64,000 bases of DNA from a virus, in IMG/VR virus record IMGVR_UViG_3300045988_126140, positions 1-64,000 of that record. One strand, given 5' to 3'. Made by a program: the position numbers and the translations under genes. Positions 5,069 to 44,231 of this stretch are shown here, piece by piece. The notes beneath the pieces are model-generated. The model saw only the letters and a list, made by a program, of their open reading frames with translations. It searched no databases and was not told the origin of the DNA. Every line of letters starts with the position of its first letter. Position 1 is the first letter of the stretch.

Positions 5069-5100
5069 CATAGGTAATTTCAATAACAGTTTTGATAATA
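5069..5100 (+). promoter_or_regulatory. phage-specific promoter C1 (CATAGGTAATTT-N12-TGATAATA)
   Basis: Exact upstream box at 5069-5080, with TGATAATA at 5093-5100. Confidence 0.6.
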
Positions 5101-5177
5101 CTATAATAAGAAGGTGATTAAAATGTAAACTTAAAAGAAATACCTCGACAAAAGTAATTAATAAAGGAGAGATAAAT

Positions 5178-6020
5178 ATGAGTAATATAATTGATATAAA
5201 TAGAAATAAAAAGATAAAAAGTATACCGAGCACAGAGGTTGCTAAAATGATGAAAAAGGAACATTGGGAAGTATTAAGAATGTTAGAAGGATATGAACCA
5301 CCTAAAGGTAGTAAAAGTAGAAAAGTTATTGGAATAATACCAACACTTACCGACCACAACATTGTGGTGAGTGATTATTTTATTGAAAGCACATATAAAG
5401 ATGCAAGTGGTAAGTTAAATAAATGTTATGAATGTACTAAAATGGGTTGTGAATTATTAGCTAATAAACTTACTGGAGAAAAGGGAATATTATTTAGTGC
5501 TACATATGTAAAAAAATTCAATGAAATGGAATCAACACAAATGCAAACAATAGACACAACAGAATTATCACCTAGCCTTCAGTCATTCAAAATGTTATTT
5601 GATAGTATGGTTGAACAAGAATTAAAACAGAAACAAATGGAAAAAGATATAAAAGGACTTCAAAATTCATTAGATAATATACAAGACTTAATATCATTGT
5701 CGAAAGATAATTGGAGAGCAGATGTGAAAAATATGGTTAATAAGATAACATATAAAACTGGTATAAATCATAAGGTTGTATATGATGAAGTATATAAAGA
5801 AATAGATAACAGATTTGGAGTAAATTTAAATACTAGATTGAAAAATAGAAAAAATAATGCTATTAAAAATGGTGTAAGTAAAACAAAAGCAGATAAAATA
5901 AATAAATTAGACATAATAAACGAAGACAAGTTATTAATTGAGGCAATATTAATTGTAATAAAAGATTTAGCAATTAAATACGGTTTATATGAAGAAAATG
6001 ATTTAACAATAAATATGTAA
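5178..6020 (+). CDS. Rha-family phage regulatory protein (antirepressor-like)
   Basis: N-terminal IPSTEVAKMMKKEHWEVLRMLEG .. YFIESTYKDASGKLNKCYECTKMGCELLANKLTGEKG resembles the Phage_pRha domain. Preceded by tandem promoters at 4998-5025 and 5069-5100. Confidence 0.6.
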   Translation: MSNIIDINRNKKIKSIPSTEVAKMMKKEHWEVLRMLEGYEPPKGSKSRKVIGIIPTLTDHNIVVSDYFIESTYKDASGKLNKCYECTKMGCELLANKLTGEKGILFSATYVKKFNEMESTQMQTIDTTELSPSLQSFKMLFDSMVEQELKQKQMEKDIKGLQNSLDNIQDLISLSKDNWRADVKNMVNKITYKTGINHKVVYDEVYKEIDNRFGVNLNTRLKNRKNNAIKNGVSKTKADKINKLDIINEDKLLIEAILIVIKDLAIKYGLYEENDLTINM

Positions 6021-6023
6021 TTA

Positions 6024-6038
6024 AAAATAATTAATAAA
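6024..6038 (+). repeat. 15-mer (exact)
   Basis: After the rha stop. Followed by an SD. Confidence 0.95.
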
Positions 6039-6057
6039 ATCTAGGAGGATATATATT

Positions 6058-7194
6058 ATGGAAAGAATAATAAACTTTACTGGGGAACTTGATGCTGAAT
6101 TAGGAAATTATGTAGTTAATGAATTATTAGATATATATGATAAAAATAAAGCTATAATTGAAACAAATGAAAGATTAAAATATCAAAGTGATTATCTACC
6201 ATTATACGCTGATGTAGTAGAATTTAGAATAAATAGTAACGGGGGAGATTTATATAAATTTTTAGAAATATATGATTTAATGGAAAGGATGAAGCAAGAA
6301 CAAGGAATAATATTTAAGGCAAGAACAAGTAGTCACGCTTATTCAGCAGGAATGTATTTGTTTTGTGCTTGCGATTATAGAACAATGAGTAAATTTGGTA
6401 GTTTAATGTATCATGAAATGTCTATGATGAGGATGGATAAATTAAGCGACTTAGAAAGTGAAACAAAAAGAATGAATAAAATACAAAAAATATTAGATGA
6501 TATAGTTACTCGAGATACTGGTCTAACTCAAGAAATTTTGGATAAATATAAAGGACGTGATTTTTGGATAGATTTTGATAAAGCTTTAGAATATGAAATA
6601 ATAAAGGAAGAACCTAGCGAAGAGGAGCGATTAGCAAAAGCATTAGAAGATATGGATAAAGAAGAAATGACAGAATCAGAATGGAACGCTTTTATCGAAG
6701 AGATGAAGGAATTGATTAATATTATTCCAGATAAGCCTACAGAAAAAGAAATACAAGATAAAATAAAAGAAATAGAAGGGGATACAGAACCAGATATGAC
6801 ATTAGGGGAAGCTGTTAAAGAGGTATTAGGCGAAGACTTTAGATGTAATGAAGAAGTTGAATGTGATGAGTTTGAAAATAGATGTTGTTATATGTGTGAG
6901 AACTTTGATAAATGTGATAAATTATGTAAATATGCAGAAAAAGCAGATATATGTGAACATATGGAGAATAAATTAGATGAATTAGATAGTGAATGTGAAA
7001 ATTGCACTTGTAAAGAAAATAAACAAGAAGATATAAAAGAATGTGAGGAACCAACTGAGTGTGGGTTACATCGTGGAACTAATATTTGTTGCCATTTCTG
7101 TCCAGACTTTAATGAATGTACAGACTTTCATAAATGTGCATTCACTGATGACGTCTTTGATTGTGAATATTTAAAAGAACCTTTGGATGACTAA
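6058..7194 (+). CDS. ClpP/S14-like serine peptidase with a C-terminal tandem cysteine-rich extension
   Basis: FRINSNGGD, SHAYSAGMYLF (Ser) and LMYHEMS (His) match ClpP-fold landmarks. The last ~115 aa hold two CC-x2-C-x2-F-x2-C repeats. Confidence 0.65.
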   Translation: MERIINFTGELDAELGNYVVNELLDIYDKNKAIIETNERLKYQSDYLPLYADVVEFRINSNGGDLYKFLEIYDLMERMKQEQGIIFKARTSSHAYSAGMYLFCACDYRTMSKFGSLMYHEMSMMRMDKLSDLESETKRMNKIQKILDDIVTRDTGLTQEILDKYKGRDFWIDFDKALEYEIIKEEPSEEERLAKALEDMDKEEMTESEWNAFIEEMKELINIIPDKPTEKEIQDKIKEIEGDTEPDMTLGEAVKEVLGEDFRCNEEVECDEFENRCCYMCENFDKCDKLCKYAEKADICEHMENKLDELDSECENCTCKENKQEDIKECEEPTECGLHRGTNICCHFCPDFNECTDFHKCAFTDDVFDCEYLKEPLDD

Positions 7195-10022: not shown

Positions 10023-10050
10023 TTGACATTATATTCCAATATGATATAAT
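10023..10050 (+). promoter_or_regulatory. sigma-A-type promoter P4
   Basis: TTGACA at 10023-10028 and TGATATAAT at 10042-10050. Confidence 0.7.
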
Positions 10051-10628: not shown

Positions 10629-10660
10629 CATAGGTAATTTTATATGTGGTCATGTTAATA
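10629..10660 (+). promoter_or_regulatory. phage-specific promoter C2
   Basis: CATAGGTAATTT at 10629-10640 and TGTTAATA at 10653-10660. Confidence 0.65.
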
Positions 10661-10721
10661 CACTAATATAAGAGGTGATTAAAATGTAAAATATATGAAA
10701 TGCCAAAATAAAATATTAATA

Positions 10722-12178: not shown

Positions 12179-12210
12179 CATAGGTAATTTTGAAGTTGGA
12201 ATTGTTAATA
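12179..12210 (+). promoter_or_regulatory. phage-specific promoter C3
   Basis: CATAGGTAATTT at 12179-12190 and TGTTAATA at 12203-12210. Confidence 0.65.
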
Positions 12211-12279
12211 CGATAATATAAGGGGTGATTAAAATGTAGAATATATTAGTTATAAGATATAAATAAAAATAACAAATTA

Positions 12280-14924: not shown

Positions 14925-15512
14925 ATGTCAAAGTCTAAAATAGTTACTTGTAAATATTGTAAATCTAAAATACCTAAAGATACTGCATATGTAGAAGAGT
15001 ATTTAACTAATAGTTGCGTACTACGAAATAATTATTATTGTAGTGAAGAATGTTTAAATGAAAAACAAAATGAGATTAAGAAAAAAGAATGGTTGAAAAA
15101 AATTAAAAAAGAAAATAGAGAAAAAATTAGAGGTCTATGTAATTTAAATGAGAAAGAAAAGAATATATATTTTCAAAGCACTTATAAAAGTATTACTGAT
15201 AATTTTTCACAAGAAGATATATATGAATTTATTAATAAATATGAAAAAGATATGTTAGACATATTAAATAATATAGATTTTAAAACTGTTAATTCAAGAA
15301 TTAAATATTGTTTATCAATGTTAGAAAATCAATTACAACATTATATAGCCGAGAATCAATTAGACAAACAAGAACCTAAAGAAAAAACAGAAGAAGTTAA
15401 AGAAGTAGAACCAAATTTTGTAGATGAGGATTTCGATATAGTAGTTAATGTAAAGAAAAGAGAGCGTAGAAGCTTAGAACAAATACTGAATGGAGAAATT
15501 AATAATGAATAG
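14925..15512 (+). CDS. hypothetical protein (195 aa), N-terminal zinc-ribbon-like CKYC..CSEEC
   Basis: Start abuts the previous stop (TAAATG). Confidence 0.7.
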   Translation: MSKSKIVTCKYCKSKIPKDTAYVEEYLTNSCVLRNNYYCSEECLNEKQNEIKKKEWLKKIKKENREKIRGLCNLNEKEKNIYFQSTYKSITDNFSQEDIYEFINKYEKDMLDILNNIDFKTVNSRIKYCLSMLENQLQHYIAENQLDKQEPKEKTEEVKEVEPNFVDEDFDIVVNVKKRERRSLEQILNGEINNE

Positions 15513-16269
15513 AATAGGGGAGAAAAAATTAAACAATTTTGGGAGTGAAATTATAATTGTAGATTATAGAAAATATTCAGACATAGATGTTTATTTTCCT
15601 CAATATGACTGGGTTGCTAAAGGAGTGCAATATGGAAATTTTAAAAATGGCAAAATTAAATGCCCTTATGAAAGAAGTATTTATGGTGTAGGTTATTTAG
15701 GAGAAGGTAAATATAATCCTTATGAAAACAGAAGAGCCACTAAGGTATATGCTACTTGGAAGGATATGTTAAAAAGATGTTATGATGAAAAATATCAAGA
15801 AAAATATTCAACTTATAAAAATTGCAGTGTTACTAAAGAATGGCATAATTTTCAAAACTTTGCTGAATGGTATTATAATAACTATTATGAGATTGAAGGA
15901 GAAACAATGTGTCTTGACAAGGATATCTTATATAAACATAATAAAGTTTATAGTCCTAAGACGTGTGTATTCGTACCACAAGCTATAAATAAATTATTTG
16001 TTAAAAGAGATAATGATAGAGGTGAATCAGTTATTGGGACATATCCTTTTCAAGGGAAATATGTAGCACAATGTAGCATTATTAATCTAAAAACAGGTAA
16101 ATCAAAACACGAATATTTAGGTTATTATACTACTCAAGAGAAAGCATTTGAAGTGTATAAATATTATAAGGAAAAGAATATTGAGGAAGTTGCTGATTAT
16201 TATAAAGGTTTAGTCCCAGAAAGATTATATAATGCGTTATACAACTACGAAGTCGAAATAACAGATTAA
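15505..16269 (+). CDS. HNH/AP2-type homing-endonuclease-like protein (copy 3)
   Basis: Family signature as for 3626-4411. ATG 15505 lies 9 nt after GGAG and overlaps the upstream stop. A 14/15 copy of the 15-mer begins in the stop codon. Confidence 0.8.
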   Translation: MNRIGEKKLNNFGSEIIIVDYRKYSDIDVYFPQYDWVAKGVQYGNFKNGKIKCPYERSIYGVGYLGEGKYNPYENRRATKVYATWKDMLKRCYDEKYQEKYSTYKNCSVTKEWHNFQNFAEWYYNNYYEIEGETMCLDKDILYKHNKVYSPKTCVFVPQAINKLFVKRDNDRGESVIGTYPFQGKYVAQCSIINLKTGKSKHEYLGYYTTQEKAFEVYKYYKEKNIEEVADYYKGLVPERLYNALYNYEVEITD

Positions 16270-19364: not shown

Positions 19365-19393
19365 ATAGCTCAAGTTAAATCGACTTGAGCTAT
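19365..19393 (+). terminator. stem-loop terminator candidate after HNH pseudogene copy 4
   Basis: 11-bp perfect stem ATAGCTCAAGT/ACTTGAGCTAT with a 7-nt loop, then ATTTGT (weak U-tract). Confidence 0.5.
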
Positions 19394-19470: not shown

Positions 19471-19502
19471 CATAGGTAATTTTTGGTGAATTAATGTTAA
19501 TA
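19471..19502 (+). promoter_or_regulatory. phage-specific promoter C4
   Basis: CATAGGTAATTT at 19471-19482 and TGTTAATA at 19495-19502. Confidence 0.65.
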
Positions 19503-19530
19503 CGGTAATATAAGAGAGGAGTGATAGAAA

Positions 19531-25083: not shown

Positions 25084-25115
25084 TATAGGTAATTTTCTGT
25101 GTGCTAATGTTAATA
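25084..25115 (+). promoter_or_regulatory. phage-specific promoter C5 (dnaE)
   Basis: TATAGGTAATTT at 25084-25095 and TGTTAATA at 25108-25115. Confidence 0.6.
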
Positions 25116-25139
25116 CACTAATATAGGAGGTGGTAATAA

Positions 25140-29359: not shown

Positions 29360-29391
29360 CATAGGTAATTTTCAAGTTATAAATGTTAATA
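29360..29391 (+). promoter_or_regulatory. phage-specific promoter C6
   Basis: CATAGGTAATTT at 29360-29371 and TGTTAATA at 29384-29391. Confidence 0.65.
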
Positions 29392-29458
29392 TAGTAATAT
29401 AAGGAGGTGATAAAAATGTAAAATATTAATAAAAATAACAAATAAGGAGGAGAATAAT

Positions 29459-30115: not shown

Positions 30116-30137
30116 ATGTTATTAAAAATATATGGAG
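30097..30137 (+). repeat. 41-nt direct repeat, copy B
   Basis: TGAAAGCGAGGTAGAATAAATGTTATTAAAAATATATGGAG, exactly 303 nt downstream of copy A. Confidence 0.9.
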
Positions 30138-30166
30138 GTGATAATAATGGCAAAAGTTGTAGATAG
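30116..30166 (+). pseudogene. truncated second copy of the 29813 gene start (MLLKIYGG..), cut by the HNH cassette
   Basis: ATGTTATTAAAAATATATGGAG is repeated; the frame ends after 16 codons, inside the HNH gene start. Confidence 0.55.
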
Positions 30167-30926
30167 GACAGGAGAGAGAAATATCAATAATTTTGGAAGT
30201 GAAATAGTGATAACGGGTTGTAGAAAAGCCATAGATATAGATGTTTATTTCCCAGAGTATGATTGGATAGTTAGAAATGTGCAATATGGTAATTTCAAAA
30301 AAGGCAATGTTAAATGTCCTTATGAACCTAGTATATGTGGTATTGGATATATCGGAGAAGGTGAATATAAAGTTAGTGAAAATGGTAAAAAAACTAGAGT
30401 TTATAAAACATGGAGTGGTATGTTACAAAGATGTTATGATGAAAAATGTCAAGAAAAACATCCTACTTATAAAGATTGTAAAGTTAGTGAAGAATTTCAT
30501 AACTTCCAAGACTTTGGTAAATGGTTTGATAATAATTATTACGAAATAGAAGGAGAAAAGATGTGTTTAGATAAAGATATACTTGTTAAACACAATAAAA
30601 TATATTCTCCAGAGAATTGTATTTTTGTACCTCAAACGATAAATAACTTGTTTGTTAAAAAAGATAAAAATAGAGGTAATTCAGTTATAGGTACAAGTCT
30701 TCGTAAAAATAATAAATATATAGTATATTGTCAAATATTTAATCCAGAAACTGGTAAATCAAAAAATAAATATTTAGGTTTATATGAAACTCAAGAAAAA
30801 GCATTTGAGGTTTATAAATATTATAAAGAGAAAAACATTAAAAAAGTTGCTGACTATTTTAAAGAACAGATTCCACAAATCTTATACGATACTTTATATA
30901 ATTATGAAGTAGAAATAGATGATTAA
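30147..30926 (+). CDS. HNH/AP2-type homing-endonuclease-like protein (copy 6)
   Basis: Family signature. ATG 30147 lies after GGAGGTGA. An exact 15-mer starts at its stop. Confidence 0.8.
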   Translation: MAKVVDRTGERNINNFGSEIVITGCRKAIDIDVYFPEYDWIVRNVQYGNFKKGNVKCPYEPSICGIGYIGEGEYKVSENGKKTRVYKTWSGMLQRCYDEKCQEKHPTYKDCKVSEEFHNFQDFGKWFDNNYYEIEGEKMCLDKDILVKHNKIYSPENCIFVPQTINNLFVKKDKNRGNSVIGTSLRKNNKYIVYCQIFNPETGKSKNKYLGLYETQEKAFEVYKYYKEKNIKKVADYFKEQIPQILYDTLYNYEVEIDD

Positions 30927-31987: not shown

Positions 31988-32729
31988 ATGATTGAAAAAA
32001 ATGTAATATATAACGAAGACTGTTTTTCTTTAATGGAACAAATGGTTGAAGAAAATTTCAAAGTAGATGTTATACTGACTCAAAGTCCTCCCTAACTTAT
32101 CTAAGGAGGACTACATAAATCTATTTCAACACTTTAATAAAATATTAATTGATAATGGAACAGTGTTAATTGAAATCCCATACGATAGAAAGAAACCAAG
32201 TTATGTATTTCAAATAATAAATGAAATAGAAATAAATACGGAATTTATGTTAGGTGACATTATATATTGGAATAAAACTGACATTCTTCCAGATAATATG
32301 AGTTGTAATCAATCAACAAAGAATGTATCACAAATACATTTATTTTGTAGAAAAAGCGAATTTAAAACTTACAAGACTAACAAAAAGGTTAAAAGTTTTA
32401 GAATAACAGGGCAAAAAACATATAGTAATATATCTAATATAATTAATGCACCAGTTAGAGACAAAGGTATTAAAACATTCAATCATAAAGTATTTTCAAC
32501 TGAATTAGTAAAAGAATTGTTATATAAATATGTGAAAAAAAGAGGAATTGTCTTTGATTGTTTTTGTGGTGTAGGTAGCACATGTTTAGCAACATTGGGT
32601 GAAAATATTTATTATATAGGAAGTGAAATAGATAAGAAACAATATGAATATAGTTTAATTAGAATTTTAAAAAGAAAACAAGAAATAAAGAAGGAGTATT
32701 ATAAAAATTATAAAAGAAAGAAGGAGTGA
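31988..32729 (+). pseudogene. N6A/N4C DNA methyltransferase (PF01555-like order: motif IV then I), frame broken inside SPPY
   Basis: Frame 2 reads MIEKNVIYNEDCFSLM..DVILTQSPP then TAA (32093-32095). Frame 3 continues NLSKEDYINLF..NGTVLIEI..VFDCFCGVGSTCLA (motif I). A 2-nt gap relative to SPPYNL would explain the break. Confidence 0.7.
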
Positions 32730-32733: not shown

Positions 32734-33510
32734 ATGGGGAGTAAAATTGACAGAACTGGTGAAGTGGGTCATAACACATTTGGTAGCAAGATGATAATTG
32801 TTGATTATAAAAAATGGAACGATATAGATGTTTATTTTACAGAATATGATTGGATTGCTAAAGGAGTACAATATCAAAATTTTAAAAAAGGAAATATTAA
32901 ATGCCCTTATGAAAGAAGTGTTTATGGAGTAGGATACATTGGAGAAGGTGAATATAAGACAAGAGAAAATGGTAAAATTACTAGAATGTATATAACTTGG
33001 CACAGTATGTTAAAAAGGTGTTATGATGAAAAATATCATGAAAAATATCCTACATATATCGGTTGTGAAATATCAGAGGATTTTCATAATTTCCAAAATT
33101 TTGCTAAATGGTATCATGACAATTATTATGAAGTTGAAGGAGAAAGAATGGAGTTGGATAAAGATATACTTATTAAAGGAAATAAAATATATAGTCCAGA
33201 GACCTGTATATTTGCACCACAAACAATTAATAGTTTGTTTACTAAATGTGATAATGCTAGAGGAGATTCAGTTATAGGTGCAAGTTTTGTAAATGGCAAA
33301 TATCGAGTGAGTTGTAATTTGATTAATCCAGTAACTGGAGAATCAAAAAGAAAACATTTAGGCTATTATGACACACAAGAAAAGGCATTTGAAGCCTACA
33401 AACAATTTAAAGAAAACTATATTAAACAAATTGCTGATTACTATAAAGAACAAATACCTATTAACCTATATAACGCTTTATATGATTATGAAGTTGAAAT
33501 AACAGATTAG
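32734..33510 (+). CDS. HNH/AP2-type homing-endonuclease-like protein (copy 7)
   Basis: Family signature. An exact 15-mer lies at 33511. Confidence 0.8.
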   Translation: MGSKIDRTGEVGHNTFGSKMIIVDYKKWNDIDVYFTEYDWIAKGVQYQNFKKGNIKCPYERSVYGVGYIGEGEYKTRENGKITRMYITWHSMLKRCYDEKYHEKYPTYIGCEISEDFHNFQNFAKWYHDNYYEVEGERMELDKDILIKGNKIYSPETCIFAPQTINSLFTKCDNARGDSVIGASFVNGKYRVSCNLINPVTGESKRKHLGYYDTQEKAFEAYKQFKENYIKQIADYYKEQIPINLYNALYDYEVEITD

Positions 33511-33583: not shown

Positions 33584-34699
33584 ATGAAAATATTAGATTT
33601 ACAAAATATATATAAAGAAAATGAAAGTGAATATATTGTATTAAAAACGTTTAAGAATGTTGTAAAAATAGCACAAGATAAATATTTGACATACCTATCC
33701 GCTTATAATATTGGTGAACTTTGGGAGAAACAACAATTAACATATTACTCTCAAACTCAAAGAGGCATAAAATATAGAAAAATTAATAATAAAATAGTAG
33801 AAAAGACAATAGTTAAAGAAAGTAATATAAATGAAATGAGTAATCTTATACTTAAAGGACAACTTAGTGTAACACAATTAAGCTTTAATGTATTAAAAAC
33901 AGATAGAGAAGTATTAAATTATAATGAAAATAAAAAAGAATTATTTATCAAAGGAAGTATATCTATATTAGATGGTATGCATAGAGTGAAGGCTTGTTAC
34001 AAAGCATATAAGTCAGCACAAATTCTTAATGACTCTAAATTAATTAACAATGCGAAATCACTTTTATTCCCTATTATTATTTCGCATTTATCTAATGAAG
34101 AAGCCAAGATTGTGTTTTCTCAAATGTCTAAAGGATTAAAAATAAGTAAATCTTTAGCCGAGAGTTTTGACAGCACTAAAGCTAGCAACCGAATCATATT
34201 AAGGTTAAATGAACATTCTGTTCTTAAAGGCATGATTGACGTAAGAAAAAATAGCGTAAGCAAAGATGATATGGAACACATAGTAACTTTTAATACCCTA
34301 AAAATGGCAATAGATGAATCGTTCCCCTCAATTAAAAATGAATCAGAAGAGAAGGAAATATATATGTTTTTATCTTCATTTTTCAATGAACTATTTTGTT
34401 TATTCCCTCACATGAAAGATGGAGAAGGACGTATATTAATCAGAAAAGAATCATTAGAATGTGAAGATATTATGTTCCATGCTTATATATCATTGGCTGA
34501 AGACTTATATATGAAGCGAAAATCTGGCAAATGGAAAGAAGAGTTAAAAGCTTTAGAAGAAATAGATTTTTCAAAATCTAATAGTATTTGGGATTGCATA
34601 ATTAAAGAAGGGAAAGAATCTTACATCACAATTAATACTAAACAATCAAGAGCATTGATGATAAGAGTGTTTAAACAAGAGTTTTATAGTAATTTGTAA
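33584..34699 (+). CDS. DGQHR/DndB-like ParB-fold protein
   Basis: QTQRG .. SILDGMHRVKA corresponds to the QR ... DGQHR pattern of DndB/DGQHR-domain proteins. It has its own TTGACA promoter (33538-33566) and its own terminator (34704-34736). Confidence 0.55.
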   Translation: MKILDLQNIYKENESEYIVLKTFKNVVKIAQDKYLTYLSAYNIGELWEKQQLTYYSQTQRGIKYRKINNKIVEKTIVKESNINEMSNLILKGQLSVTQLSFNVLKTDREVLNYNENKKELFIKGSISILDGMHRVKACYKAYKSAQILNDSKLINNAKSLLFPIIISHLSNEEAKIVFSQMSKGLKISKSLAESFDSTKASNRIILRLNEHSVLKGMIDVRKNSVSKDDMEHIVTFNTLKMAIDESFPSIKNESEEKEIYMFLSSFFNELFCLFPHMKDGEGRILIRKESLECEDIMFHAYISLAEDLYMKRKSGKWKEELKALEEIDFSKSNSIWDCIIKEGKESYITINTKQSRALMIRVFKQEFYSNL

Positions 34700-34739: not shown

Positions 34740-34771
34740 CATAGGTAATTTTTGGCTAACGATTGTTAATA
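34740..34771 (+). promoter_or_regulatory. phage-specific promoter C7
   Basis: CATAGGTAATTT at 34740-34751 and TGTTAATA at 34764-34771. Confidence 0.65.
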
Positions 34772-34795
34772 TATTAATATAAGGAGGTAGATGTT

Positions 34796-36224: not shown

Positions 36225-36256
36225 CATAGGTAATTTTTACTCATTAATTGTTAATA
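36225..36256 (+). promoter_or_regulatory. phage-specific promoter C8
   Basis: CATAGGTAATTT at 36225-36236 and TGTTAATA at 36249-36256. Confidence 0.65.
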
Positions 36257-36281
36257 TATTAAATATAAGGGGTGATGTAAA

Positions 36282-36798: not shown

Positions 36799-36830
36799 CA
36801 TAGGTAATTTTTATAAAAGTTTTGTTAATA
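36799..36830 (+). promoter_or_regulatory. phage-specific promoter C9 (nrdDG)
   Basis: CATAGGTAATTT at 36799-36810 and TGTTAATA at 36823-36830. Confidence 0.65.
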
Positions 36831-36854
36831 TAGTAATATGAAGGAGGTGATAAT

Positions 36855-39727: not shown

Positions 39728-39759
39728 CATAGGTAATTTTTATATCAGTTTTGTTAATA
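39728..39759 (+). promoter_or_regulatory. phage-specific promoter C10 (now reading into tnpB)
   Basis: CATAGGTAATTT at 39728-39739 and TGTTAATA at 39752-39759. Confidence 0.65.
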
Positions 39760-39778
39760 CACTAATATAAGAAAAGGA

Positions 39779-39788
39779 GGTGATAATA
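39779..39788 (+). repeat. left copy of the 10-bp direct repeat GGTGATAATA flanking the TnpB element
   Basis: Identical to 41082-41091. Confidence 0.9.
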
Positions 39789-39795
39789 TTGTAAG

Positions 39796-40926
39796 ATGAA
39801 ATCATTAAAAATAAAATTATATCCTACAAAACAACAAGAAATATTATTCTACAAACATATTAATTGTCAAAGATATATTTATAATTGGGCTTTAGGTATT
39901 AACAATGAATTATATAAAGAAAATAAAATGAAATATTCTAGTAATGAATTGTGTAAAATGCTTACTCAATATAAAAAAGATAATACTTGGTTAAATGAAG
40001 TATCTAGTGCAACGTTAAAAGAATCAATTAGAAATCTAGATAAAGCTTATACTAATTTTTATAAAGGTAGAGCCAATTTACCTAAATTTAAGAGTAAAAG
40101 AAAGTCTAAATTAAGCTTTTATAGTAGATATGATAAAATTAAATTTTACCAAAATAATACTGTTAATTTAGAAAAAATAGGTAGGGTAAAATATAAATCT
40201 AGCTATAATATAGATTTGACTCAAATAATTAAATTTAGTAATCCTCATGTATCATATAATGGTAGATGTTGGATATTAACTGTAGGTATAAGTGTAGATA
40301 GTGAAATGCATAAATTAACAAATGAAGTAATAGGAATAGATTTAGGCATAAAAGAATTAGCAATATGTAGTAATGGAATGATATTTAAAAATATAAACAA
40401 AGATTTAACTATTAAGAAATTAGAAAAACGACTTAAAAGATTGCAAAGAAAAGTAAGTAAAAAATATGAATTAAATAAAGAAGGGAGGAGTTATCAAAAA
40501 TCTAATAATATAATTAAACTTGAAAATAAAATAAATAGATTATATCGAAAATTACATAATATAAGATTAAATTATATACATCAAACAACTTCTACAATAG
40601 TGAAAACCAAACCTTGTATGATAGTTATGGAAGATTTATGTATTAAAAATATGATGAAAAATAAATCAATTGCTAAACAAGTTCAAAAGATAGGGTTATA
40701 TGAATTTATTAGACAGATGAAGTATAAATGCGAATGGAATGGTATCAGATTTGAACAAGTAGATAGATATTTCCCATCAAGCAAAATATGTAGTAATTGT
40801 TTTAATATAAAGAAAGATTTAAAATTATCTGATAGAACATATTATTGTGAAAAATGTGGTTTAACTATTGATAGAGATTTTAATGCAAGTATTAATCTTA
40901 TGAATTATGGAAAGTCATTATTATAA
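39796..40926 (+). CDS. tnpB: TnpB (IS200/IS605-family RNA-guided nuclease)
   Basis: N-terminal KIKLYPTKQQE motif. RuvC triad GIDLGIKE (D), VMEDLCIKNM (E), DRDFNASINL (D). Zinc finger CSNC..CEKC. Confidence 0.9.
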   Translation: MKSLKIKLYPTKQQEILFYKHINCQRYIYNWALGINNELYKENKMKYSSNELCKMLTQYKKDNTWLNEVSSATLKESIRNLDKAYTNFYKGRANLPKFKSKRKSKLSFYSRYDKIKFYQNNTVNLEKIGRVKYKSSYNIDLTQIIKFSNPHVSYNGRCWILTVGISVDSEMHKLTNEVIGIDLGIKELAICSNGMIFKNINKDLTIKKLEKRLKRLQRKVSKKYELNKEGRSYQKSNNIIKLENKINRLYRKLHNIRLNYIHQTTSTIVKTKPCMIVMEDLCIKNMMKNKSIAKQVQKIGLYEFIRQMKYKCEWNGIRFEQVDRYFPSSKICSNCFNIKKDLKLSDRTYYCEKCGLTIDRDFNASINLMNYGKSLL

Positions 40927-41091
40927 GAATTTCTATAACATGTAGTGTTTCGTTAAACACGAATTTACGCCTTTGGACTATTAATAACTAGAGTAGGTAT
41001 TTTTCTGAAATAGAATAGAATGAAAAAGGAATGAAGATTTATTTAAGTTTAATTTATAGATTTTTATAGATTTTCGATAACGGTGATAATA
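40927..41091 (+). ncRNA. putative omega RNA (reRNA) scaffold of TnpB
   Basis: About 165 nt of non-coding sequence lies directly 3' of tnpB. It has hairpins (GTGTTTcgttAAACAC at ~40945-40960) and a tandem TTATAGATTTT x2. The location is canonical for TnpB guide RNAs; the fold was not verified. Confidence 0.4.
41082..41091 (+). repeat. right copy of the 10-bp direct repeat GGTGATAATA
   Basis: Identical to 39779-39788. Followed by the leader ATG-TAA at 41095-41100. Confidence 0.9.
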
Positions 41092-41155: not shown

Positions 41156-41395
41156 ATGGTAATGATTTTTATAGATTCAAAAATAGAACATCTGCAAGAA
41201 ATCGTAGGACAAAGGGTTAGTTTGGATTTTGATAGTATGACAGGTGAATTATATATTAATGCATTACAAACAGGAAAATATATCAAATTATCATCTAATA
41301 TAAATATAAATAATGAAGGTAGATATGTAATAATTTCAGATAATGATAATGACAGTTTATTTATAATGAAAGATTTAGAAGGAGATGAAATATAA
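41156..41395 (+). CDS. hypothetical protein (79 aa)
   Basis: TAAGGAGAT SD at the end of the leader. Confidence 0.7.
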   Translation: MVMIFIDSKIEHLQEIVGQRVSLDFDSMTGELYINALQTGKYIKLSSNININNEGRYVIISDNDNDSLFIMKDLEGDEI

Positions 41396-41396: not shown

Positions 41397-42149
41397 ATGA
41401 ATTTAAAAGTAGGAGATAAAGTTAAAATAAAAGAAGATTTGAGTGAATGTGAATTTGGATATTGTGGTTATATGGAAGAGTTTGCAGGTAAAGAGACAAC
41501 TGTAATAAGTACTTTTGGTAAAGGTGTGATAAAGTTAGATATAGATGAACAAGTCTGGGATTGGTCAGAAAATGTATTAGAATTAATAGAGGAAGGAAAA
41601 ACAATGAAAATGAAAAGAATAGATTATATATTAAATGCCAAAGATAACATGCAAGCAATATTAGATGAAACAGTGTTAGATTGTGATATATGCCCAGTTG
41701 ACAGTGGGGTTTGTAATGGTGATTGCGAATTTTATTATAAAGAATATCTAAATGAAGAAATAGAAGTTGATAAATCCAAACTGAAATTAGTTGAAGAAAA
41801 CATAGAAGTTGAAACAGTGGAATGTGATAAAGAAGTTGTTAATAACCCAGTTAATCCATTTATAGAAGAATATAAAAAGATAGTAACTGAAACAATGAAT
41901 TTATGTGAAAAGAAAAATAAAGATTATGGAAATGCAACAGATGAATCATTCAAACAATTTGGTGATGTAAGTTATCAAGTAAGATGCTTTGACAAATGGA
42001 GTAGGATAAATACATTATTGAAGAATGGAAAAGCTGAAGTTTCTGAATCATTAGAAGATAGTTTACTGGATTTAAGTAATTACTTATTCCTTTGGGTTAC
42101 AAGTAGAAGATTAAAAGAAAAAGGTGATACTATATGCCAGGAAAAATAA
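41397..42149 (+). CDS. SH3-like N-terminal module fused to a DUF1599/MazG-like all-alpha domain
   Basis: C-terminal KKNKDYGNATDESFKQFG..VRCFDKWSRI..EDSLLDLSNYLFLW matches the DUF1599 pattern. The N-terminal KVGDKVKIKEDL.. is homologous to the N-terminus of the 43434 gene. Confidence 0.55.
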   Translation: MNLKVGDKVKIKEDLSECEFGYCGYMEEFAGKETTVISTFGKGVIKLDIDEQVWDWSENVLELIEEGKTMKMKRIDYILNAKDNMQAILDETVLDCDICPVDSGVCNGDCEFYYKEYLNEEIEVDKSKLKLVEENIEVETVECDKEVVNNPVNPFIEEYKKIVTETMNLCEKKNKDYGNATDESFKQFGDVSYQVRCFDKWSRINTLLKNGKAEVSESLEDSLLDLSNYLFLWVTSRRLKEKGDTICQEK

Positions 42150-42916
42150 ACAGAAAAGGGGAAGAAAATATAAATACTTTTGGTAGTAAAATGGTTATAG
42201 TAGAATATAGAAAGGCTATGGACATGGATGTATATTTTCCCGAATACAATTGGACATCTAATCATAAACAATATGGTAATTTTAAAAAAGGCAATATCAA
42301 ATGTCCATATGATAGAAGTGTCTATGGAGTAGGTTATATTGGTGAAGGAAAATATAAGGTAAAAGAAAACGATGAGGTCACCAGAGCTTATAAGACTTGG
42401 AATCATATGATGGAAAGATGTTATGATGAAAAACTTCATAAAAAACACCCAACTTATAAGAATTGTAAAGTTAGTGAAAAATGGCATAACTTTCAAAACT
42501 TTACTGAGTGGTATGAAGATAACTATTATGAAGTTGATGATGAAACAATGTGTTTAGATAAAGATATATTAATTAAAGGTAATAAGATATATTCACCAGA
42601 AACTTGCATTTTTGTACCAAATACAATTAATGTATTATTTACCAAGAGAGATAGTAAGAGAGGAGAAACATGTATAGGTACAAGTTATCATAAAAGATAT
42701 AAAGTATATGAAGCTAATTGTCATTTAATAAACCCTAAAACTGGAAAATCTAAAAATAAATATTTAGGGAGATATAACACAGAACTAGAAGCGTTTGAAG
42801 TGTATAAATATTATAAAGAAAAGAATATTAAGGAAGTGGCAGATTACTTTAAAAAAGAAATACCAGACGAATTATATCAATCATTACATGATTACATAGT
42901 TGAAATTACAGATTAA
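42134..42916 (+). CDS. HNH/AP2-type homing-endonuclease-like protein (copy 8)
   Basis: Family signature. The start overlaps the upstream gene. This is the only copy without a 15-mer after its stop. Confidence 0.8.
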   Translation: MPGKINRKGEENINTFGSKMVIVEYRKAMDMDVYFPEYNWTSNHKQYGNFKKGNIKCPYDRSVYGVGYIGEGKYKVKENDEVTRAYKTWNHMMERCYDEKLHKKHPTYKNCKVSEKWHNFQNFTEWYEDNYYEVDDETMCLDKDILIKGNKIYSPETCIFVPNTINVLFTKRDSKRGETCIGTSYHKRYKVYEANCHLINPKTGKSKNKYLGRYNTELEAFEVYKYYKEKNIKEVADYFKKEIPDELYQSLHDYIVEITD

Positions 42917-42936
42917 AATATATCTAAAGAAAGGAG

Positions 42937-43434
42937 GTGATTATTATTTTATTATCTTTAGACGCAAGTATAGCTAGTACAGGATATGCTATATTTGATA
43001 AAGAAAAATTAATAATATATGGTAAAATTGTTACTAAAAAGAAAGATTTTAAAACCGAAGATTTAAGAATAAATCATATATGTGATGAAATAAAGCAACT
43101 AATAATTGAATATAATATAGATAAAATAATTGTAGAAGACCAATTTACTGGTGTTAATCAATCAACAATACTGTTATTAAGAAAGTTAATAGGAGCTATT
43201 TTGAGGACGGCTAATGAATTCAACATATCATTATCGTACTATTATCCTGCACAGTGGAGAAAAATCATAGGAATTAATAGTGGGAAAAGTATAGATAAAA
43301 AAGAGAAGGCGTATAGATTTTTAGTTAATAATAACATTATAGATTTTGAATTTATACCAAAGGGAGTTCAAAAGAATGATGATATTATTGATGCGATATG
43401 TATAGGTATAGCATATATGAAAGGAGAGATGTAA
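42937..43434 (+). CDS. RuvC-like Holliday junction resolvase (phage type)
   Basis: LSLDASIASTGYAIFD (Asp1), IVEDQF (Glu), DDIIDAICIG (C-terminal Asp pair). No canonical start codon lies downstream of the SD. Confidence 0.7.
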   Translation: MIIILLSLDASIASTGYAIFDKEKLIIYGKIVTKKKDFKTEDLRINHICDEIKQLIIEYNIDKIIVEDQFTGVNQSTILLLRKLIGAILRTANEFNISLSYYYPAQWRKIIGINSGKSIDKKEKAYRFLVNNNIIDFEFIPKGVQKNDDIIDAICIGIAYMKGEM

Positions 43435-44174
43435 TGAGTAAATTTAAGATTGGTGATAAAGTGAGAATAAGAGAAGATTTAAATGAATATAATTTCCATG
43501 ATATAATACCAGAAATGTTAAAATATGCAGGGAAGGAATTTGAAATAATAGATATACGTTATAATGCTATCTTTGGCGAATGTTATGTGTTAAACGATGT
43601 TAATTATTTTTGGTATGGAGATGCGTTAGAATTAGTAAATGAATCAGAAATTAAAATATTAGGTGTCGATTATACAACAAGCACATTAAAAATAGAGGAA
43701 AGTGTCTCACAAAAAGTAAGGGGATTTGAAATTGTGTCTGATGAATTTAGAAAACATCCAGACGTAGATATACAATTGCCTAAACGTGGAACTAAAAAAT
43801 CAGCAGGATATGATATATGTACTCCTATAGATATAATTATCCCTCCTAATGGTATATCTGATGCAATTCAAACTGATTTAAAAGCATATATGTTAGAAGA
43901 CGAAGTATTAGAAATAGTACCAAGAAGTAGTATAGGATTTAAAAAAGGATTGATGTTGATTAATACTGTAGGAATAATAGATTCAGATTATTATAGCAAC
44001 CCAGATAACGATGGTAATATAGGATTTAAATTTAAAAATTTAACAGATAAAACAGTAGAAATAAAAGCTGGAGAAAGAATATTACAAGGGATATTTAAAA
44101 AATATTTAACAACAGATTATGACGATTGTGATATTGAGAGAATGGGCGGAATAGGAAGTACGGGGATTGAATAA
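43434..44174 (+). CDS. dut: dUTPase with a ~90-aa SH3-like N-terminal extension
   Basis: dUTPase motifs AGYDI, PRSS, GIIDSDY, ERILQ and RMGGIGSTG. ATG 43434 overlaps the ruvC stop (TAATG). Confidence 0.85.
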   Translation: MSKFKIGDKVRIREDLNEYNFHDIIPEMLKYAGKEFEIIDIRYNAIFGECYVLNDVNYFWYGDALELVNESEIKILGVDYTTSTLKIEESVSQKVRGFEIVSDEFRKHPDVDIQLPKRGTKKSAGYDICTPIDIIIPPNGISDAIQTDLKAYMLEDEVLEIVPRSSIGFKKGLMLINTVGIIDSDYYSNPDNDGNIGFKFKNLTDKTVEIKAGERILQGIFKKYLTTDYDDCDIERMGGIGSTGIE

Positions 44175-44189
44175 AAAATAATTAATAAA
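44175..44189 (+). repeat. 15-mer (exact)
   Basis: After the dut stop. Followed by C11. Confidence 0.95.
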
Positions 44190-44199
44190 ATTTTTATCG

Positions 44200-44231
44200 G
44201 ATAGGTAATTTTAGTTGCTTATCCGATAATA
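44200..44231 (+). promoter_or_regulatory. phage-specific promoter C11 (weaker: GATAGGTAATTT-N12-CGATAATA)
   Basis: Upstream box 11/12 and downstream box 6/8 at the correct spacing. Embedded in the inverted repeat ATCGGATAGG..CTTATCCGAT. Confidence 0.45.

What the first reader, a model, noticed from the sequence alone, without database searches (positions are those of the whole stretch)
5069..44231. Second, phage-specific promoter family CATAGGTAATTT-N12-TGTTAATA (11 copies plus 1 degenerate), distinct from the TTGACA promoters
Seen in the sequence. 32-nt units occur at 5069, 10629, 12179, 19471, 25084, 29360, 34740, 36225, 36799, 39728 and 44200, and a degenerate one at 1253. The spacer is exactly 12 nt in every copy. 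The downstream box reads like an extended -10 (TGnTAATAc/t). The position where a -35 hexamer would sit is filled by the invariant (C)ATAGGTAATTT rather than anything TTGACA-like. All copies are on the + strand in front of replication and nucleotide-metabolism cassettes: rha, the ssb-like gene, the zinc-ribbon nuclease, dnaB, dnaE, the NTPase, 36282, nrdDG and tnpB. None occurs in the late block. In three cases about 10 nt upstream is also conserved (AAATTTTAAATCATAGG at 5058 and 12168). Inference: these are middle-class promoters that need a phage-encoded activator, appropriator or sigma factor recognising CATAGGTAATTT. No sigma-like gene was recognised in this window.
Basis: partly seen in the sequence, partly recalled or inferred. 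Interest (0 to 1): 0.65.

Follow-up and report, generated by a model that had tools for sequence, protein, structure and literature searches.

The report
Phage-specific promoters for phage-encoded sigma
A ~50-base sequence repeated a dozen times in front of the replication genes of an uncultivated 135-kb human-gut phage is almost certainly a promoter family that the host's normal sigma factor cannot read; the phage encodes a small sigma-H-like sigma factor just outside the window that is its likely reader, which is a classic phage strategy seen here with a new promoter sequence.

Summary
In detail: 11 strong copies plus 1 variant, all on the + strand, all intergenic, with rigid spacing (0.44 expected by chance). 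The unit is longer than reported: (C)ATAGGTAATTTT-N11-TGTTAATAY-NN-TAATATAAGGAGG. Aligned with the window's perfect sigma-A promoters (TTGACA-N14-TGaTATAAT), box 2 falls exactly on the extended -10 and box 1 on -39..-27. The TATAAGGAGG leader is shared by both classes.

More than 125 distinct copies occur in a family of 133-140 kb gut phage-plasmid genomes and nowhere else. No sigma gene lies in the window. However, a contig identical to the window shows a 190-aa sigma-70-family gene 4.5 kb upstream. It is sigma-H/ECF-like and is expressed from the sigma-A-promoter-rich early region. Its DNA-reading helices are nearly invariant in all 13 genomes, matching the invariant motif. Two other regulators (a paralogous sigma and a LuxR-type protein) are hypervariable and therefore unlikely readers.

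The best reading is a set of middle-class promoters read by a phage sigma, as in SPO1. This is a new member of a known kind, and no transcript data exist. In complete relatives the units also head the operon that encodes the presumed late-gene regulator. The unit "before tnpB" only looks that way because an IS element inserted into its leader.

The parts
1253..1309 (+). Variant unit (box 1 AAGGGTTATTT, box 2 TGTTAATAT) upstream of gene 1318-1674
   Evidence: 18.4 bits in the PWM scan. The same variant type, AAGG(T/G)(G/T)(A/T)TTTT..TTATGTTAATATATAAGTATAAA, recurs at other loci in relatives.
5069..5122 (+). Unit upstream of the rha-like gene (5178). It lies 72 nt downstream of the sigma-A promoter at 4998 and is followed by a start-stop ATGTAA at 5123-5128.
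10629..10682 (+). Unit upstream of the 377-aa gene (10745); start-stop ATGTAA at 10684-10689
12179..12232 (+). Unit upstream of the treble-clef zinc-finger protein (12298); start-stop ATGTAG at 12234-12239
19471..19524 (+). Unit upstream of a 19-codon ORF and dnaB (19609); a hairpin lies upstream at 19365-19393
25084..25137 (+). Unit directly serving the dnaE N-terminal part (25140)
29360..29413 (+). Unit upstream of the 117-aa gene (29459); start-stop ATGTAA at 29416-29421
34740..34793 (+). Unit directly serving the P-loop protein (34796, PHROG 2467). A terminator-like hairpin plus T-run lies immediately upstream.
36225..36278 (+). Unit upstream of the 154-aa gene (36282)
36799..36852 (+). 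Unit upstream of a short ORF and nrdD/nrdG (36972)
39728..39788 (+). Unit whose leader is interrupted by an IS605-type insertion. Its native cargo is the gene at 41156.
39789..41081 (+). tnpB plus omega-RNA (RAGATH-18 at 40970-41031) inserted in that leader. It is not part of the promoter family.
   Evidence: Relatives read GGAGGTGATAATA|AAAATGTAAAATACATTC. In the window GGTGATAATA is present at both junctions and the native leader resumes at 41082.
44200..44253 (+). Weakest full unit (box 2 CGATAATAT) upstream of small genes at 44258-45309
   Evidence: 30 bits
690..718 (+). Comparison class: sigma-A-type promoter (TTGACA-17-TATACT)
1938..1965 (+). Comparison class: perfect sigma-A extended -10 promoter
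   Evidence: 12/12 match plus TG; same downstream leader as the units
4998..5025 (+). Comparison class: perfect sigma-A extended -10 promoter, in tandem with unit 5070
10023..10050 (+). Comparison class: perfect sigma-A extended -10 promoter

Best explanation
Each unit is a promoter plus a very short 5' leader. Box 2 (TGTTAATAY) is the -10 region: an extended -10 'TG' followed by the hexamer TAATAY. Box 1 (CATAGGTAATTTT) occupies -39 to -27, so GGTAAT sits exactly 17 bp upstream of the hexamer. Transcription is predicted to start about 6-8 nt after the hexamer, inside TAATATAA. The mRNA would therefore begin only 2-6 nt before a strong Shine-Dalgarno sequence (AAGGAGGTGAT).

Host core RNA polymerase is used, but promoter specificity comes from a phage-encoded sigma-70-family protein rather than from host sigma-A. 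The most likely reader is 'sigma-b', a 188-191-aa two-domain (sigma2 + sigma4), sigma-H/ECF-like sigma. It is encoded in the early region, which is rich in sigma-A-type promoters, about 4.5 kb upstream of the window.

The resulting cascade would be:
1. Host sigma-A transcribes the early genes, including the sigma pair. The promoter in front of the first sigma gene is wrapped in a palindromic operator.
2. Sigma-b then switches on the 12 or more units, which serve replication, recombination and nucleotide-metabolism genes and also the operon containing a LuxR-type regulator.
3. That regulator presumably activates the late structural genes.

Shown here: the repeat family, its geometry relative to genes and to the sigma-A promoters, its restriction to this phage group, and the existence, family membership and conservation pattern of the sigma genes.

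Inferred: the transcript starts, the timing, and the pairing of sigma-b with the motif.
For: The family is real and strand- and position-specific. All copies are intergenic and co-oriented with the downstream gene. In relatives the units flip strand together with the genes.

Alignment with the window's sigma-A promoters puts box 2 on TGnTATAAT, with the same TG and the same 'TATAAGGAGG' 5-6 nt downstream. The -35 position scores 1/6 against TTGACA. The hexamer is TAATAC (70), TAATAT (53) or a rare variant, and is never TATAAT.

An A/T-rich block (AATAATTAATAAA) sits at the UP-element position in both classes. Terminator-like hairpins precede several units.

The motif is exclusive to this phage group. 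There are at least 110 stretches in IMG/VR, all from the same 133-140 kb family. In 596 Gb of bacterial genomes there are only chance singletons that lack box 3, plus two phage fragments.

Sigma genes: two tandem small sigma-like genes occur in the early region of all 13 large relatives. The window's own phage has sigma-b on contig L142, which is 100% identical over 8,889 nt. Evidence that it is a sigma:
- Pfam Sigma70_r2/Sigma70_ECF hits and the JGI name 'sigma-70 family' on orthologs.
- A profile hit to F. nucleatum sigma-H, 3mzy, E = 1e-4, over residues 32-181 of 189.
- An AF2 model with two helical domains, for which essentially all Foldseek hits are sigma factors.

The region 4.2 helix of sigma-b (NVSSVTIN(R/K)KINLIK) and its region 2 are nearly invariant across 30 orthologs down to 58% identity, and in 12 of 13 genomes, matching the invariant motif. 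By contrast, sigma-a has two helix types, and the LuxR-type protein's helix differs completely between alleles in genomes that carry the identical motif.

Box 1 matches 7 of 9 positions of the published sigma-H -35 consensus RMAGGRWWW, and the invariant G of box 2 falls where the sigma-H -10 G lies with an N12 spacer (consensus from PMC4754846). This is consistent with a sigma-H-like reader.

The early region is dense in sigma-A promoters with a single unit, and the units dominate downstream of the sigma genes.
Against: There are no transcript data of any kind, because the host is unknown and the phage is uncultivated.

The link between sigma-b and the motif rests on conservation logic only. 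No genome with a changed sigma-b helix and enough flanking DNA could be found to test co-variation.

The sigma-H-like fit is partial: the defining GAAT core of sigma-H -10 elements is replaced by GTTAAT.

Box 2 still looks like a weakened sigma-A extended -10. The TGnTAATAT form keeps -12T, -11A and -7T, so sigma-A plus an activator cannot be excluded.

Foldseek E-values for sigma-b are modest (0.01-0.1), and the direct Pfam hit is below the gathering threshold.

phiCD211, the nearest cultured relative, has no comparable promoter family.
Confidence: 0.62

Rival explanations
1. Host sigma-A holoenzyme uses box 2 as a weak extended -10 promoter, and a phage-encoded activator or 'appropriator' bound to box 1 replaces the missing -35 contact. 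This would be T4 MotA/AsiA-like, lambda cII-like or phi29 p4-like.
For: Box 2 has the TGn extended -10 format, and in 43% of copies the hexamer TAATAT keeps the critical -12T, -11A and -7T. Box 1 is asymmetric and centred near -33, where MotA-type factors bind. Many early proteins have no known function.
Against: In 56% of copies the hexamer ends in C at -7, which is a poor sigma-A -10. Both boxes are equally invariant and the spacing is rigid, which fits a dedicated sigma better. No MotA/AsiA-like or other activator family was found by Pfam or PHROGs in about 85% of the non-late genome, whereas two real sigma genes were found.
Confidence: 0.15
2. The paralogous sigma-a, rather than sigma-b, reads the motif, or the two act redundantly.
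For: Sigma-a is the first gene behind the operator-controlled sigma-A promoter and has the same two-domain architecture, with a Sigma70_r2 hit.
Against: Its region 4.2 helix occurs in two different allelic types (SSTNVNKKVNR versus SQNT(V/I)KKKIH) in genomes that carry the identical motif.
Confidence: 0.1
3. A host alternative sigma factor (for example the host's own sigma-H) reads the units, tying phage gene expression to a host physiological state.
For: Box 1 fits 7 of 9 positions of the sigma-H -35 consensus, and the -10 G is at the sigma-H spacing. The invariance of the motif across alleles is also what a host-fixed reader would impose.
Against: The GAAT core that defines sigma-H -10 elements is absent. 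No bacterial genome carries the full unit, although an exact-pattern scan is too strict to find degenerate host promoters. The phage encodes its own sigma-H-like proteins, which would make a host factor unnecessary.
Confidence: 0.07
4. The 395-aa LuxR/sigma4-type protein (PHROG 5767, annotated 'sigma factor') encoded before the terminase is the reader of the motif.
For: It matches PHROG 5767 at E = 3e-77 and has a GerE/Sigma70_r4 HTH. It is present in all large relatives.
Against: Its own operon lies behind motif units. It is hypervariable (100/94/71/47/45% identity) in genomes whose neighbouring genes are 87-98% identical, and its recognition helix differs completely between alleles while the motif stays identical. 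A different site just downstream of the gene co-varies with the allele. No sigma2 domain is detectable.
Confidence: 0.03
5. The units are not primarily promoters. They could be recombination joints for module shuffling (as proposed for T4 PeSL cassettes) or an RNA-level element.
For: Homology breakpoints between the window and its mosaic relatives lie near units more often than random positions do (23 observed versus 4.9 expected).
Against: Among intergenic gaps, those with a unit are barely enriched (23 of 43 breakpoints against a 42% share of gap length). There is no Rfam match and no inverted repeat between the boxes (and the sequence itself). The strict orientation, the alignment with sigma-A promoters and the fixed distance to the SD all point to transcription initiation.
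Confidence: 0.03

Closest known systems
Bacillus phage SPO1 middle promoters read by the phage sigma Gp28 (early sigma-A, then Gp28, then Gp33/34)
   Same: A lytic programme in a Firmicutes phage in which host sigma-A transcribes early genes that include a small phage sigma. That sigma redirects host core RNA polymerase to a phage-specific bipartite promoter class in front of replication genes, and a further regulator made from that class controls late genes (paradigm as described in PMC13401047).
   Different: The promoter sequence is unrelated. From memory, the SPO1 middle consensus is AGGAGA-N17-TTTNTTT. Sigma-b shows no detectable specific relationship to Gp28. The present phages are plasmid-like (Rep3, ParM) temperate-type elements rather than a virulent herellevirus. 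The third tier is a LuxR-type HTH protein rather than a Gp34-type sigma.
Sigma-H (Spo0H) promoters of Firmicutes: RMAGGRWWW-N11-12-RRMGAAW
   Same: A long A/T-flanked AGG-containing -35 element (box 1 matches 7 of 9 positions), a short rigid spacer with the -10 G at the same distance, and a reader whose best solved relative is a sigma-H.
   Different: The GAAT core is replaced by GTTAATAY.
T4 middle promoters (MotA box at -30 plus sigma-70 -10, with AsiA sigma appropriation)
   Same: A phage-specific element replaces the -35 hexamer. The promoters are interleaved with early promoters in front of replication and nucleotide-metabolism genes.
   Different: T4 keeps a good sigma-70 -10 and re-uses host sigma-70. 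Here the -10 also deviates and is invariant, no MotA/AsiA homologs were found, and dedicated sigma genes exist.
ECF (group 4) sigma promoters
   Same: A two-domain sigma of about 190 aa, with Sigma70_ECF Pfam hits on orthologs and Foldseek hits to sigma-E, sigma-W and Mtb sigma-H. The promoters have rigid spacing, a highly informative -35 element and a T-tract after the -35 core.
   Different: The ECF signature, as I recall it, of 'AAC' in the -35 element and 'CGT' in the -10 element is absent. No anti-sigma gene is evident.
STAB-SD / 5'-proximal ribosome-binding stabilisers of Bacillus mRNAs (cryIIIA, SP82 leader; recalled from the literature)
   Same: A strong SD within a few nucleotides of the predicted 5' end. 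In about 30% of units it is not used for the downstream gene and is followed only by ATG-TAA.
   Different: Nothing has been tested here. The start-stop codon pair is not part of the classical STAB-SD.

Membership tests
Bacterial sigma-70-type promoter (generic) | Two conserved blocks at about -35 and -10 with constrained spacing, oriented towards a downstream gene | tested here: met
   The boxes are 12 nt apart in about 155 of 157 in-register sites, all are co-oriented with genes, and all are intergenic.
Bacterial sigma-70-type promoter (generic) | Transcripts start about 7 nt downstream of the -10 element | not testable with these tools
   No RNA data exist. The position is inferred from alignment with the sigma-A promoters that share the same leader.
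Housekeeping sigma-A promoter | -35 hexamer close to TTGACA, 16-18 bp upstream of the -10 | tested here: not met
   GGTAAT lies at the 17-bp position and matches 1 of 6.
Housekeeping sigma-A promoter | -10 hexamer close to TATAAT with T at -7 | tested here: not met
   The hexamer is TAATAC in 56% and TAATAT in 43% of distinct copies, and is never TATAAT.
Housekeeping sigma-A promoter | TG extension at -15/-14 | tested here: met
   TG is present in 95-100% of copies, in the same register as in the window's sigma-A promoters.
Sigma-H-type promoter | -35 element RMAGGRWWW | tested here: inconclusive
   ATAGGTAAT matches 7 of 9 positions; positions 2 and 6 deviate (consensus from PMC4754846).
Sigma-H-type promoter | -10 element RRMGAAW after an 11-12 nt spacer | tested here: not met
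   With N12 the G aligns, but GAA is replaced by GTT (WWTGTTA).
T4-type middle promoter (MotA/AsiA) | Host sigma-70-type -10 plus a MotA box, with MotA and AsiA homologs encoded by the phage | tested here: not met
   The -10 is not sigma-A-like. No MotA/AsiA family hit was found in Pfam or PHROGs scans of the window and relatives.
SPO1 Gp28 middle promoter | Consensus AGGAGA-N17-TTTNTTT (from memory) | tested here: not met
   The sequence of the units differs.
Sigma-70 protein family (candidate reader sigma-b) | Sigma2 domain (core binding, -10 recognition) | tested here: met
   PF04542 and PF07638 hits on many orthologs; profile alignment to sigma-H 3mzy from region 2 onwards; helical N-terminal domain with Foldseek hits to sigma factors.
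Sigma-70 protein family (candidate reader sigma-b) | Sigma4 helix-turn-helix (-35 recognition) | tested here: met
   A C-terminal HTH aligned to 3mzy region 4, with a conserved helix NVSSVTINRKINLIK.
Sigma-70 protein family (candidate reader sigma-b) | Binds core RNA polymerase and directs initiation at the cognate promoter | not testable with these tools
   This requires biochemistry or a reporter assay.
Sigma-70 protein family (395-aa PHROG 5767 'sigma factor') | Sigma2 domain | tested here: inconclusive
   Only the GerE/Sigma70_r4 HTH is detected. The AF2 model is of low confidence with a mixed alpha/beta N-terminal half, and no significant Foldseek hit was found.

The most novel reading that the evidence does not exclude
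The units and sigma-b form a self-contained, orthogonal sigma-H-type transcription module inside a three-tier cascade of a human-gut phage-plasmid.

The stereotyped leader places a strong Shine-Dalgarno sequence 2-6 nt from the mRNA 5' end. Where the real gene lies further downstream, the leader carries only a one-codon ATG-TAA 'start-stop'. In this reading it works as a ribosome-loaded 5' cap that stabilises phage mRNAs against 5'-end-dependent decay.

The last tier, a LuxR-type activator, is hypervariable and co-evolves with its own target site. That would point to an arms race, or to immunity-like specificity, acting on late-gene activation.
Probability: 0.3. Interest if true: 0.6.

Novelty: new member of a known kind. 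Interest (0 to 1): 0.42.

Why it matters
If confirmed, this gives a complete and very clean regulatory parts list for an abundant but uncultivated family of about 135-kb human-gut phage-plasmids, distantly related to the 'big plasmidial' phiCD211 phages of C. difficile:
- an operator-controlled sigma-A promoter;
- two small sigma factors;
- a roughly 20-bit phage-specific promoter used 12-16 or more times per genome;
- a separate late regulator.

It lets transcription units and temporal classes be predicted directly from sequence in these genomes. It also offers a compact sigma/promoter pair that might serve as an orthogonal expression switch in low-GC Firmicutes. Finally, the start-stop leaders and the hypervariable late activator become concrete, testable questions. 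Conceptually it repeats the SPO1 paradigm rather than overturning anything.

Tried and rejected
1. Near-identity search of 20 kb against deposited phages found only HNH fragments. The DnaB protein search shows only remote relatives at 24-28% identity: phiCD211-type, Thomasclavelia and Fusobacterium phages.
2. No paper contains the motif.
3. The bacterial-genome scan meant to identify the host returned chance singletons plus two phage fragments in a gut Firmicutes MAG. The host remains unknown.
4. A de novo dyad search in phiCD211 (131.7 kb), with the window as positive control, found no equivalent family. Its best candidate was a coding repeat.
5. Its structure prediction and fold search were uninformative beyond the HTH.
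6. The PeSL-like recombination-joint idea was tested. Breakpoints concentrate at gene boundaries in general rather than specifically at the units.
7. Rfam found nothing at the units.
8. The co-variation test using sigma-b outliers with altered helices (P0178, P0179) failed. Their contigs (up to 4.5 kb) hold only the early region, and the metagenome scan returned a single mainstream 136.5-kb human-gut contig.
9. A single-subunit or virion RNA polymerase was considered and rejected. No such gene was found in the scans, and the bipartite motif with a non-conserved 11-nt spacer does not fit that kind of promoter.
10. Sporulation sigma consensus sequences (sigma-E/F/G/K, recalled from memory) were compared by eye and do not fit.

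Full report
**1. The observation**

All are on the + strand, against 0.44 expected from dinucleotide-preserving shuffles. A weight matrix built from the eleven strong copies scores them at 30-51 bits and the copy at 1254 at 18 bits, and finds nothing else above 12 bits on either strand. The window has about 26% G+C. Genes lie on the + strand up to about 45.4 kb and on the - strand (tail and lysis genes) beyond that. All twelve sites lie in intergenic gaps, which make up 9.5% of the + block.

**2. The unit is longer than reported**

Flanking alignment and a survey of 126 distinct copies from relatives show conservation outside the positions used to find them:
- C at -1 (75%) and A at -4 (92%).
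- C or T at +31.
- TAATATAA at +34..+41 (82-96%).
- A purine-rich Shine-Dalgarno sequence (AAGGAGGTGAT) after that.

Each box predicts the other. Of 200 distinct box-1 sites, about 155 have box 2 in the same register and only two are shifted by one base. Of 147 box-2+leader sites, 130 have box 1, and the only recurrent variant is G-to-A at the first G.

**3. What the boxes are**

The window also holds a second, textbook promoter family, TTGACA-N14-TGaTATAAT. It scores 12/12 plus TG at 1938, 4998 and 10023, 11/12 at 690, and more weakly at 18512 and 33538.

When the two families are aligned on the -10 hexamer they superimpose. Both have TG at -15/-14, and both have 'TATAAGGAGG' 5-6 nt after the hexamer. 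This gives three conclusions:
- Box 2 is an extended -10 region whose hexamer is TAATAY instead of TATAAT.
- Box 1 covers -39 to -27, with GGTAAT where TTGACA would be (1/6 match).

The predicted start, 6-8 nt after the hexamer, puts the SD only 2-6 nt from the 5' end.

An A/T block, AAAAATAATTAATAAA, occurs 27 times on the + strand and 4 times on the - strand. It overlaps stop codons and sits where an UP element would lie, 5 nt before the sigma-A -35 element and 1-11 nt before box 1. It also precedes plain SDs, so it is a general gene-boundary punctuation mark.

Several units follow terminator-like hairpins (34741, 19472, 36226).

**4. Where else it occurs**

All come from one family of 133-140 kb uncultivated viral genomes that are mosaically 75-98% identical to the window. 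Each genome has 10-16 or more copies. Most lie in one long co-oriented block, and two or three lie on the opposite strand at the head of the structural block.

In 596 Gb of bacterial and archaeal genomes there are 17 hits. Fifteen are isolated chance matches lacking C-1 and box 3. The other two are phage fragments binned into a human-gut Firmicutes MAG. A human-gut metagenome contig of 136.5 kb belongs to the same group.

No deposited phage is close. The nearest are the 'big plasmidial' phiCD211-type phages of C. difficile, at about 25-36% protein identity. No paper contains the motif, and Rfam has nothing at the units.

**5. What the units precede**

The units lie in front of:
- the rha-like gene;
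- a 377-aa unknown protein;
- a treble-clef zinc-finger protein;
- a short ORF plus dnaB;
- dnaE;
- a 117-aa unknown protein;
- a P-loop protein (PHROG 2467);
- a 154-aa unknown protein;
- a short ORF plus nrdDG;
- small terminal genes.

The unit 'before tnpB' is a special case. Relatives have the ordinary leader there. In the window a roughly 1.3-kb IS605-type element (tnpB plus its RAGATH-18 omega-RNA) sits between duplicated GGTGATAATA junctions, and the native leader resumes at 41082.

In about 30% of distinct copies, including 5070, 10630, 12180 and 29361, the leader SD is followed by a one-codon ORF (ATG-TAA/TAG), and the real gene starts 50-110 nt later. In the others the SD serves the gene directly.

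**6.

Pfam and PHROGs scans of all window genes found no sigma factor, RNA polymerase, or MotA/AsiA-like protein. I therefore mined the relatives.

It is syntenic with the 'LuxR-type' gene of phiCD211 and present in all large relatives. Three points argue against it:
- It lies behind motif units itself.
- It is hypervariable (100/94/71/47/45% identity) while its neighbours are 87-98% identical.
- Its recognition helix differs completely between alleles (SVGTVSKYLDR / DRKSVESMLNT / KLPSITGMLDT / PTGKVCNFLDR), although all these genomes carry the identical motif.

Instead, two short patches in the intergenic region just downstream of the gene co-vary with the allele. That is what one would expect of its own target, presumably a late promoter. 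Sequence and fold searches support only the HTH and not a sigma2 domain.

*(b) Two small sigma genes.* I scanned every ORF in the fetched relatives that had no homolog among the proteins already examined. This uncovered two tandem paralogous genes of about 185-195 aa with region-2-like and region-4-like segments.
- The first ('sigma-a') follows a sigma-A promoter, TTGACT-17-TATAAT, flanked by a perfect 9-bp inverted repeat (CTTGCCAAA/TTTGGCAAG). This looks like an operator-controlled early promoter.
- The pair is present in all 13 large contigs.
- For the window's own phage, contig L142 is 100% identical over the 8,889 nt it shares with the window. It carries 'sigma-b' at window coordinates -5038 to -4466 and one further unit at -168.

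**7. Sigma-b is a sigma-70-family protein**

- Many orthologs carry Sigma70_r2 and Sigma70_ECF Pfam hits and the JGI name 'RNA polymerase sigma factor (sigma-70 family)'.
- A profile of 30 orthologs finds the sigma-H of Fusobacterium nucleatum (3mzy) as its best solved relative, at E = 1e-4 over residues 32-181 of 189.
- The AlphaFold model (pLDDT 74) has two helical domains joined by a disordered linker. Essentially all Foldseek matches are sigma factors (B. subtilis SigH, M. tuberculosis SigH/L/K, E. coli sigma-E, AlgU, SigW, sigma-28) with probabilities of 0.9-1.0, although E-values are only 0.01-0.1.

**8. Why sigma-b is the favoured reader**

A reader of an invariant DNA signal should keep its DNA-contacting parts invariant. 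Across 30 sigma-b orthologs down to 58% identity, the region 4.2 helix (NVSSVTIN(R/K)KINLIK) and the region 2 segment (IIYNSYNxYIRDNxY) are almost unchanged while the rest of the protein drifts. The helix is the same in 12 of 13 genomes, and all of them have the same motif. Sigma-a has two helix types, and the LuxR-type protein has at least four.

The promoter anatomy also fits a sigma-H-like protein. Against the published consensus RMAGGRWWW-N11-12-RRMGAAW (PMC4754846), box 1 (ATAGGTAAT) matches 7 of 9 positions, and the invariant G of box 2 aligns with the -10 G at an N12 spacer. The GAAT core, however, is replaced by GTTAAT, so this is a resemblance and not membership.

The gene order fits a cascade as well. 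The region upstream of the sigma genes is dense in sigma-A promoters and has a single unit. Downstream of the sigma genes the units take over.

A true co-variation test could not be run. The only sigma-b variants with altered helices (P0178, P0179) sit on contigs of 4.5 kb or less that contain no unit, and the metagenome scan found no longer ones.

**9. Rival explanations**

- Sigma-A plus an activator bound at box 1 (the T4 MotA/AsiA model) remains possible. Box 2 keeps the TG and, in 43% of copies, the key -12T, -11A and -7T. But 56% of copies have C at -7, both boxes are equally invariant, no activator family was found, and dedicated sigma genes were.
- A host alternative sigma cannot be excluded without knowing the host. 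It is made unnecessary by the phage sigma genes, and the sigma-H -10 core is missing.
- A role as recombination joints is at most secondary. Homology breakpoints cluster at gene boundaries generally (43 of 140 fall in the 9.5% of sequence that is intergenic), but gaps with a unit are only mildly over-represented among gaps (23 of 43 against a 42% share of gap length).
- phiCD211 has no equivalent promoter family. The family is therefore specific to this metagenomic group.

**10. Comparison with known systems and verdict**

Functionally this is the SPO1 scheme: host sigma-A for early genes, then phage sigma factors for later classes (PMC13401047). Phage-encoded sigma factors are common in Firmicutes phages (PMC9429907). 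What is new is the particular promoter, its sigma-H-like geometry with a different -10 element, the candidate sigma, and the setting in a human-gut phage-plasmid lineage with Rep3 plus iterons and ParM.

My confidence in the separate claims is:
- The family is real: certain.
- The units are promoters: about 0.9.
- They are read by something other than sigma-A alone: about 0.8.

The finding is a well-supported new member of a known kind and of moderate interest. The start-stop leaders and the hypervariable late regulator are the less ordinary side observations.

Noticed in passing
window, 27 sites on the + strand (e.g. 673, 1920, 4980, 10005, 25070, 39715, 44177) and 4 on the - strand (47035, 57375, 57447, 58250): AAAAATAATTAATAAA acts as a stereotyped gene-boundary 'punctuation' motif. 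It overlaps stop codons and lies immediately upstream of an SD, a sigma-A promoter (5 nt before the -35 element) or a motif unit. It may combine the roles of multi-frame stop, UP element and AU-rich translational enhancer.
   Followed up: partly
window 5123-5128, 10684-10689, 12234-12239, 29416-29421: One-codon 'start-stop' ORFs (ATG-TAA/TAG) sit behind the strong leader SD, with the real gene 50-110 nt further on. They are present in about 30% of 127 distinct units across relatives. They may act as 5'-proximal ribosome-binding mRNA stabilisers; this has not been tested.
   Followed up: partly
window 39789-41081: An IS605-type tnpB with its omega-RNA (Rfam RAGATH-18 at 40970-41031) has inserted into the leader of unit 39729. 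GGTGATAATA is present at both junctions, and relatives lack the insertion.
   Followed up: yes
window 300-665, 3626-4411, 15490-16269, 18842-19351, 23404-24180, 30132-30926, 32734-33510, 42134-42916, 57449-58225(-): Nine paralogous HNH/AP2-type homing-endonuclease genes (PHROG 953/374/2081, about 258 aa) are scattered through both gene blocks.
   Followed up: partly
window 25140-29357: The DNA polymerase III alpha gene is split into an N-terminal part (PHP plus NTPase domains, 25140-26726) and a C-terminal part (finger plus HhH, 27852-29357) by a LAGLIDADG/HTH gene (26958-27758). This suggests an intron or a free-standing endonuclease insertion.
   Followed up: no
L128 9992-11330 and the equivalent regions of L134, L137, L040, L103 (relatives, outside the window): The 395-aa LuxR/sigma4-type protein (PHROG 5767) is hypervariable (45-100% identity) while its neighbours are 87-98% identical. 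Two short patches in the intergenic region downstream of the gene, GCAAAATA[NNNNNN]TTTTTTCCTAGTAT[N~10], co-vary with the allele. This is a candidate allele-specific late promoter.
   Followed up: partly
L007 about 6270-6400, L093, L025, L069, L148 2900-2990 (relatives): The sigma-A promoter in front of the first small sigma gene is embraced by a perfect 9-bp inverted repeat (CTTGCCAAA...TTTGGCAAG) overlapping the -35 element. This looks like a repressor operator controlling entry into the lytic cascade.
   Followed up: no
L128 5531-6720; L142 3840-4745; L023/L001 (relatives): Plasmid-type features are present: a Rep3 initiator next to iteron-like repeats (CCCTTAAAAACACATATT), a ParM-like actin (ALP_N), an FtsK-like protein and a tyrosine recombinase. 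The group looks like phage-plasmids, as described for phiCD211-type phages.
   Followed up: partly
window about 45320-45490, - strand: A 'TTTCCGAGTAT' element sits in the convergent gap, followed about 100 nt later by a strong terminator hairpin (GGGATAGGTG...CATCTATCCC plus a T-run). It is related to the TTTCCTAGTAT element that recurs in relatives. Together they may mark a small non-coding RNA gene and a third promoter type.
   Followed up: no
window 1253-1309; L016, L075, L161, L049: The 'degenerate' unit is one of a recurrent variant class, AAGG(T/G)(G/T)(A/T)TTTT-N-TTATGTTAATATATAAGTATAAA. It keeps the normal box 2 but has a different box 1 and a different downstream sequence. It could be a separate promoter subclass, perhaps read by the other sigma.
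   Followed up: partly
relatives: L008 430-1410, L066 5517-6176; window 33584-34699, 32163-32729: Counter-defence and DNA-modification genes are present: Gad1 (anti-Gabija) and Tad3 (anti-Thoeris) homologs in relatives, and a DndB-like protein and DNA methylases in the window.
   Followed up: no
window 46380-46470, 57380-57470, 62990-63070 (- strand): Inside the late block, terminator-like hairpins are followed directly by an SD with no recognisable promoter between them. Late transcription may therefore have to read through them, possibly by antitermination.
   Followed up: no
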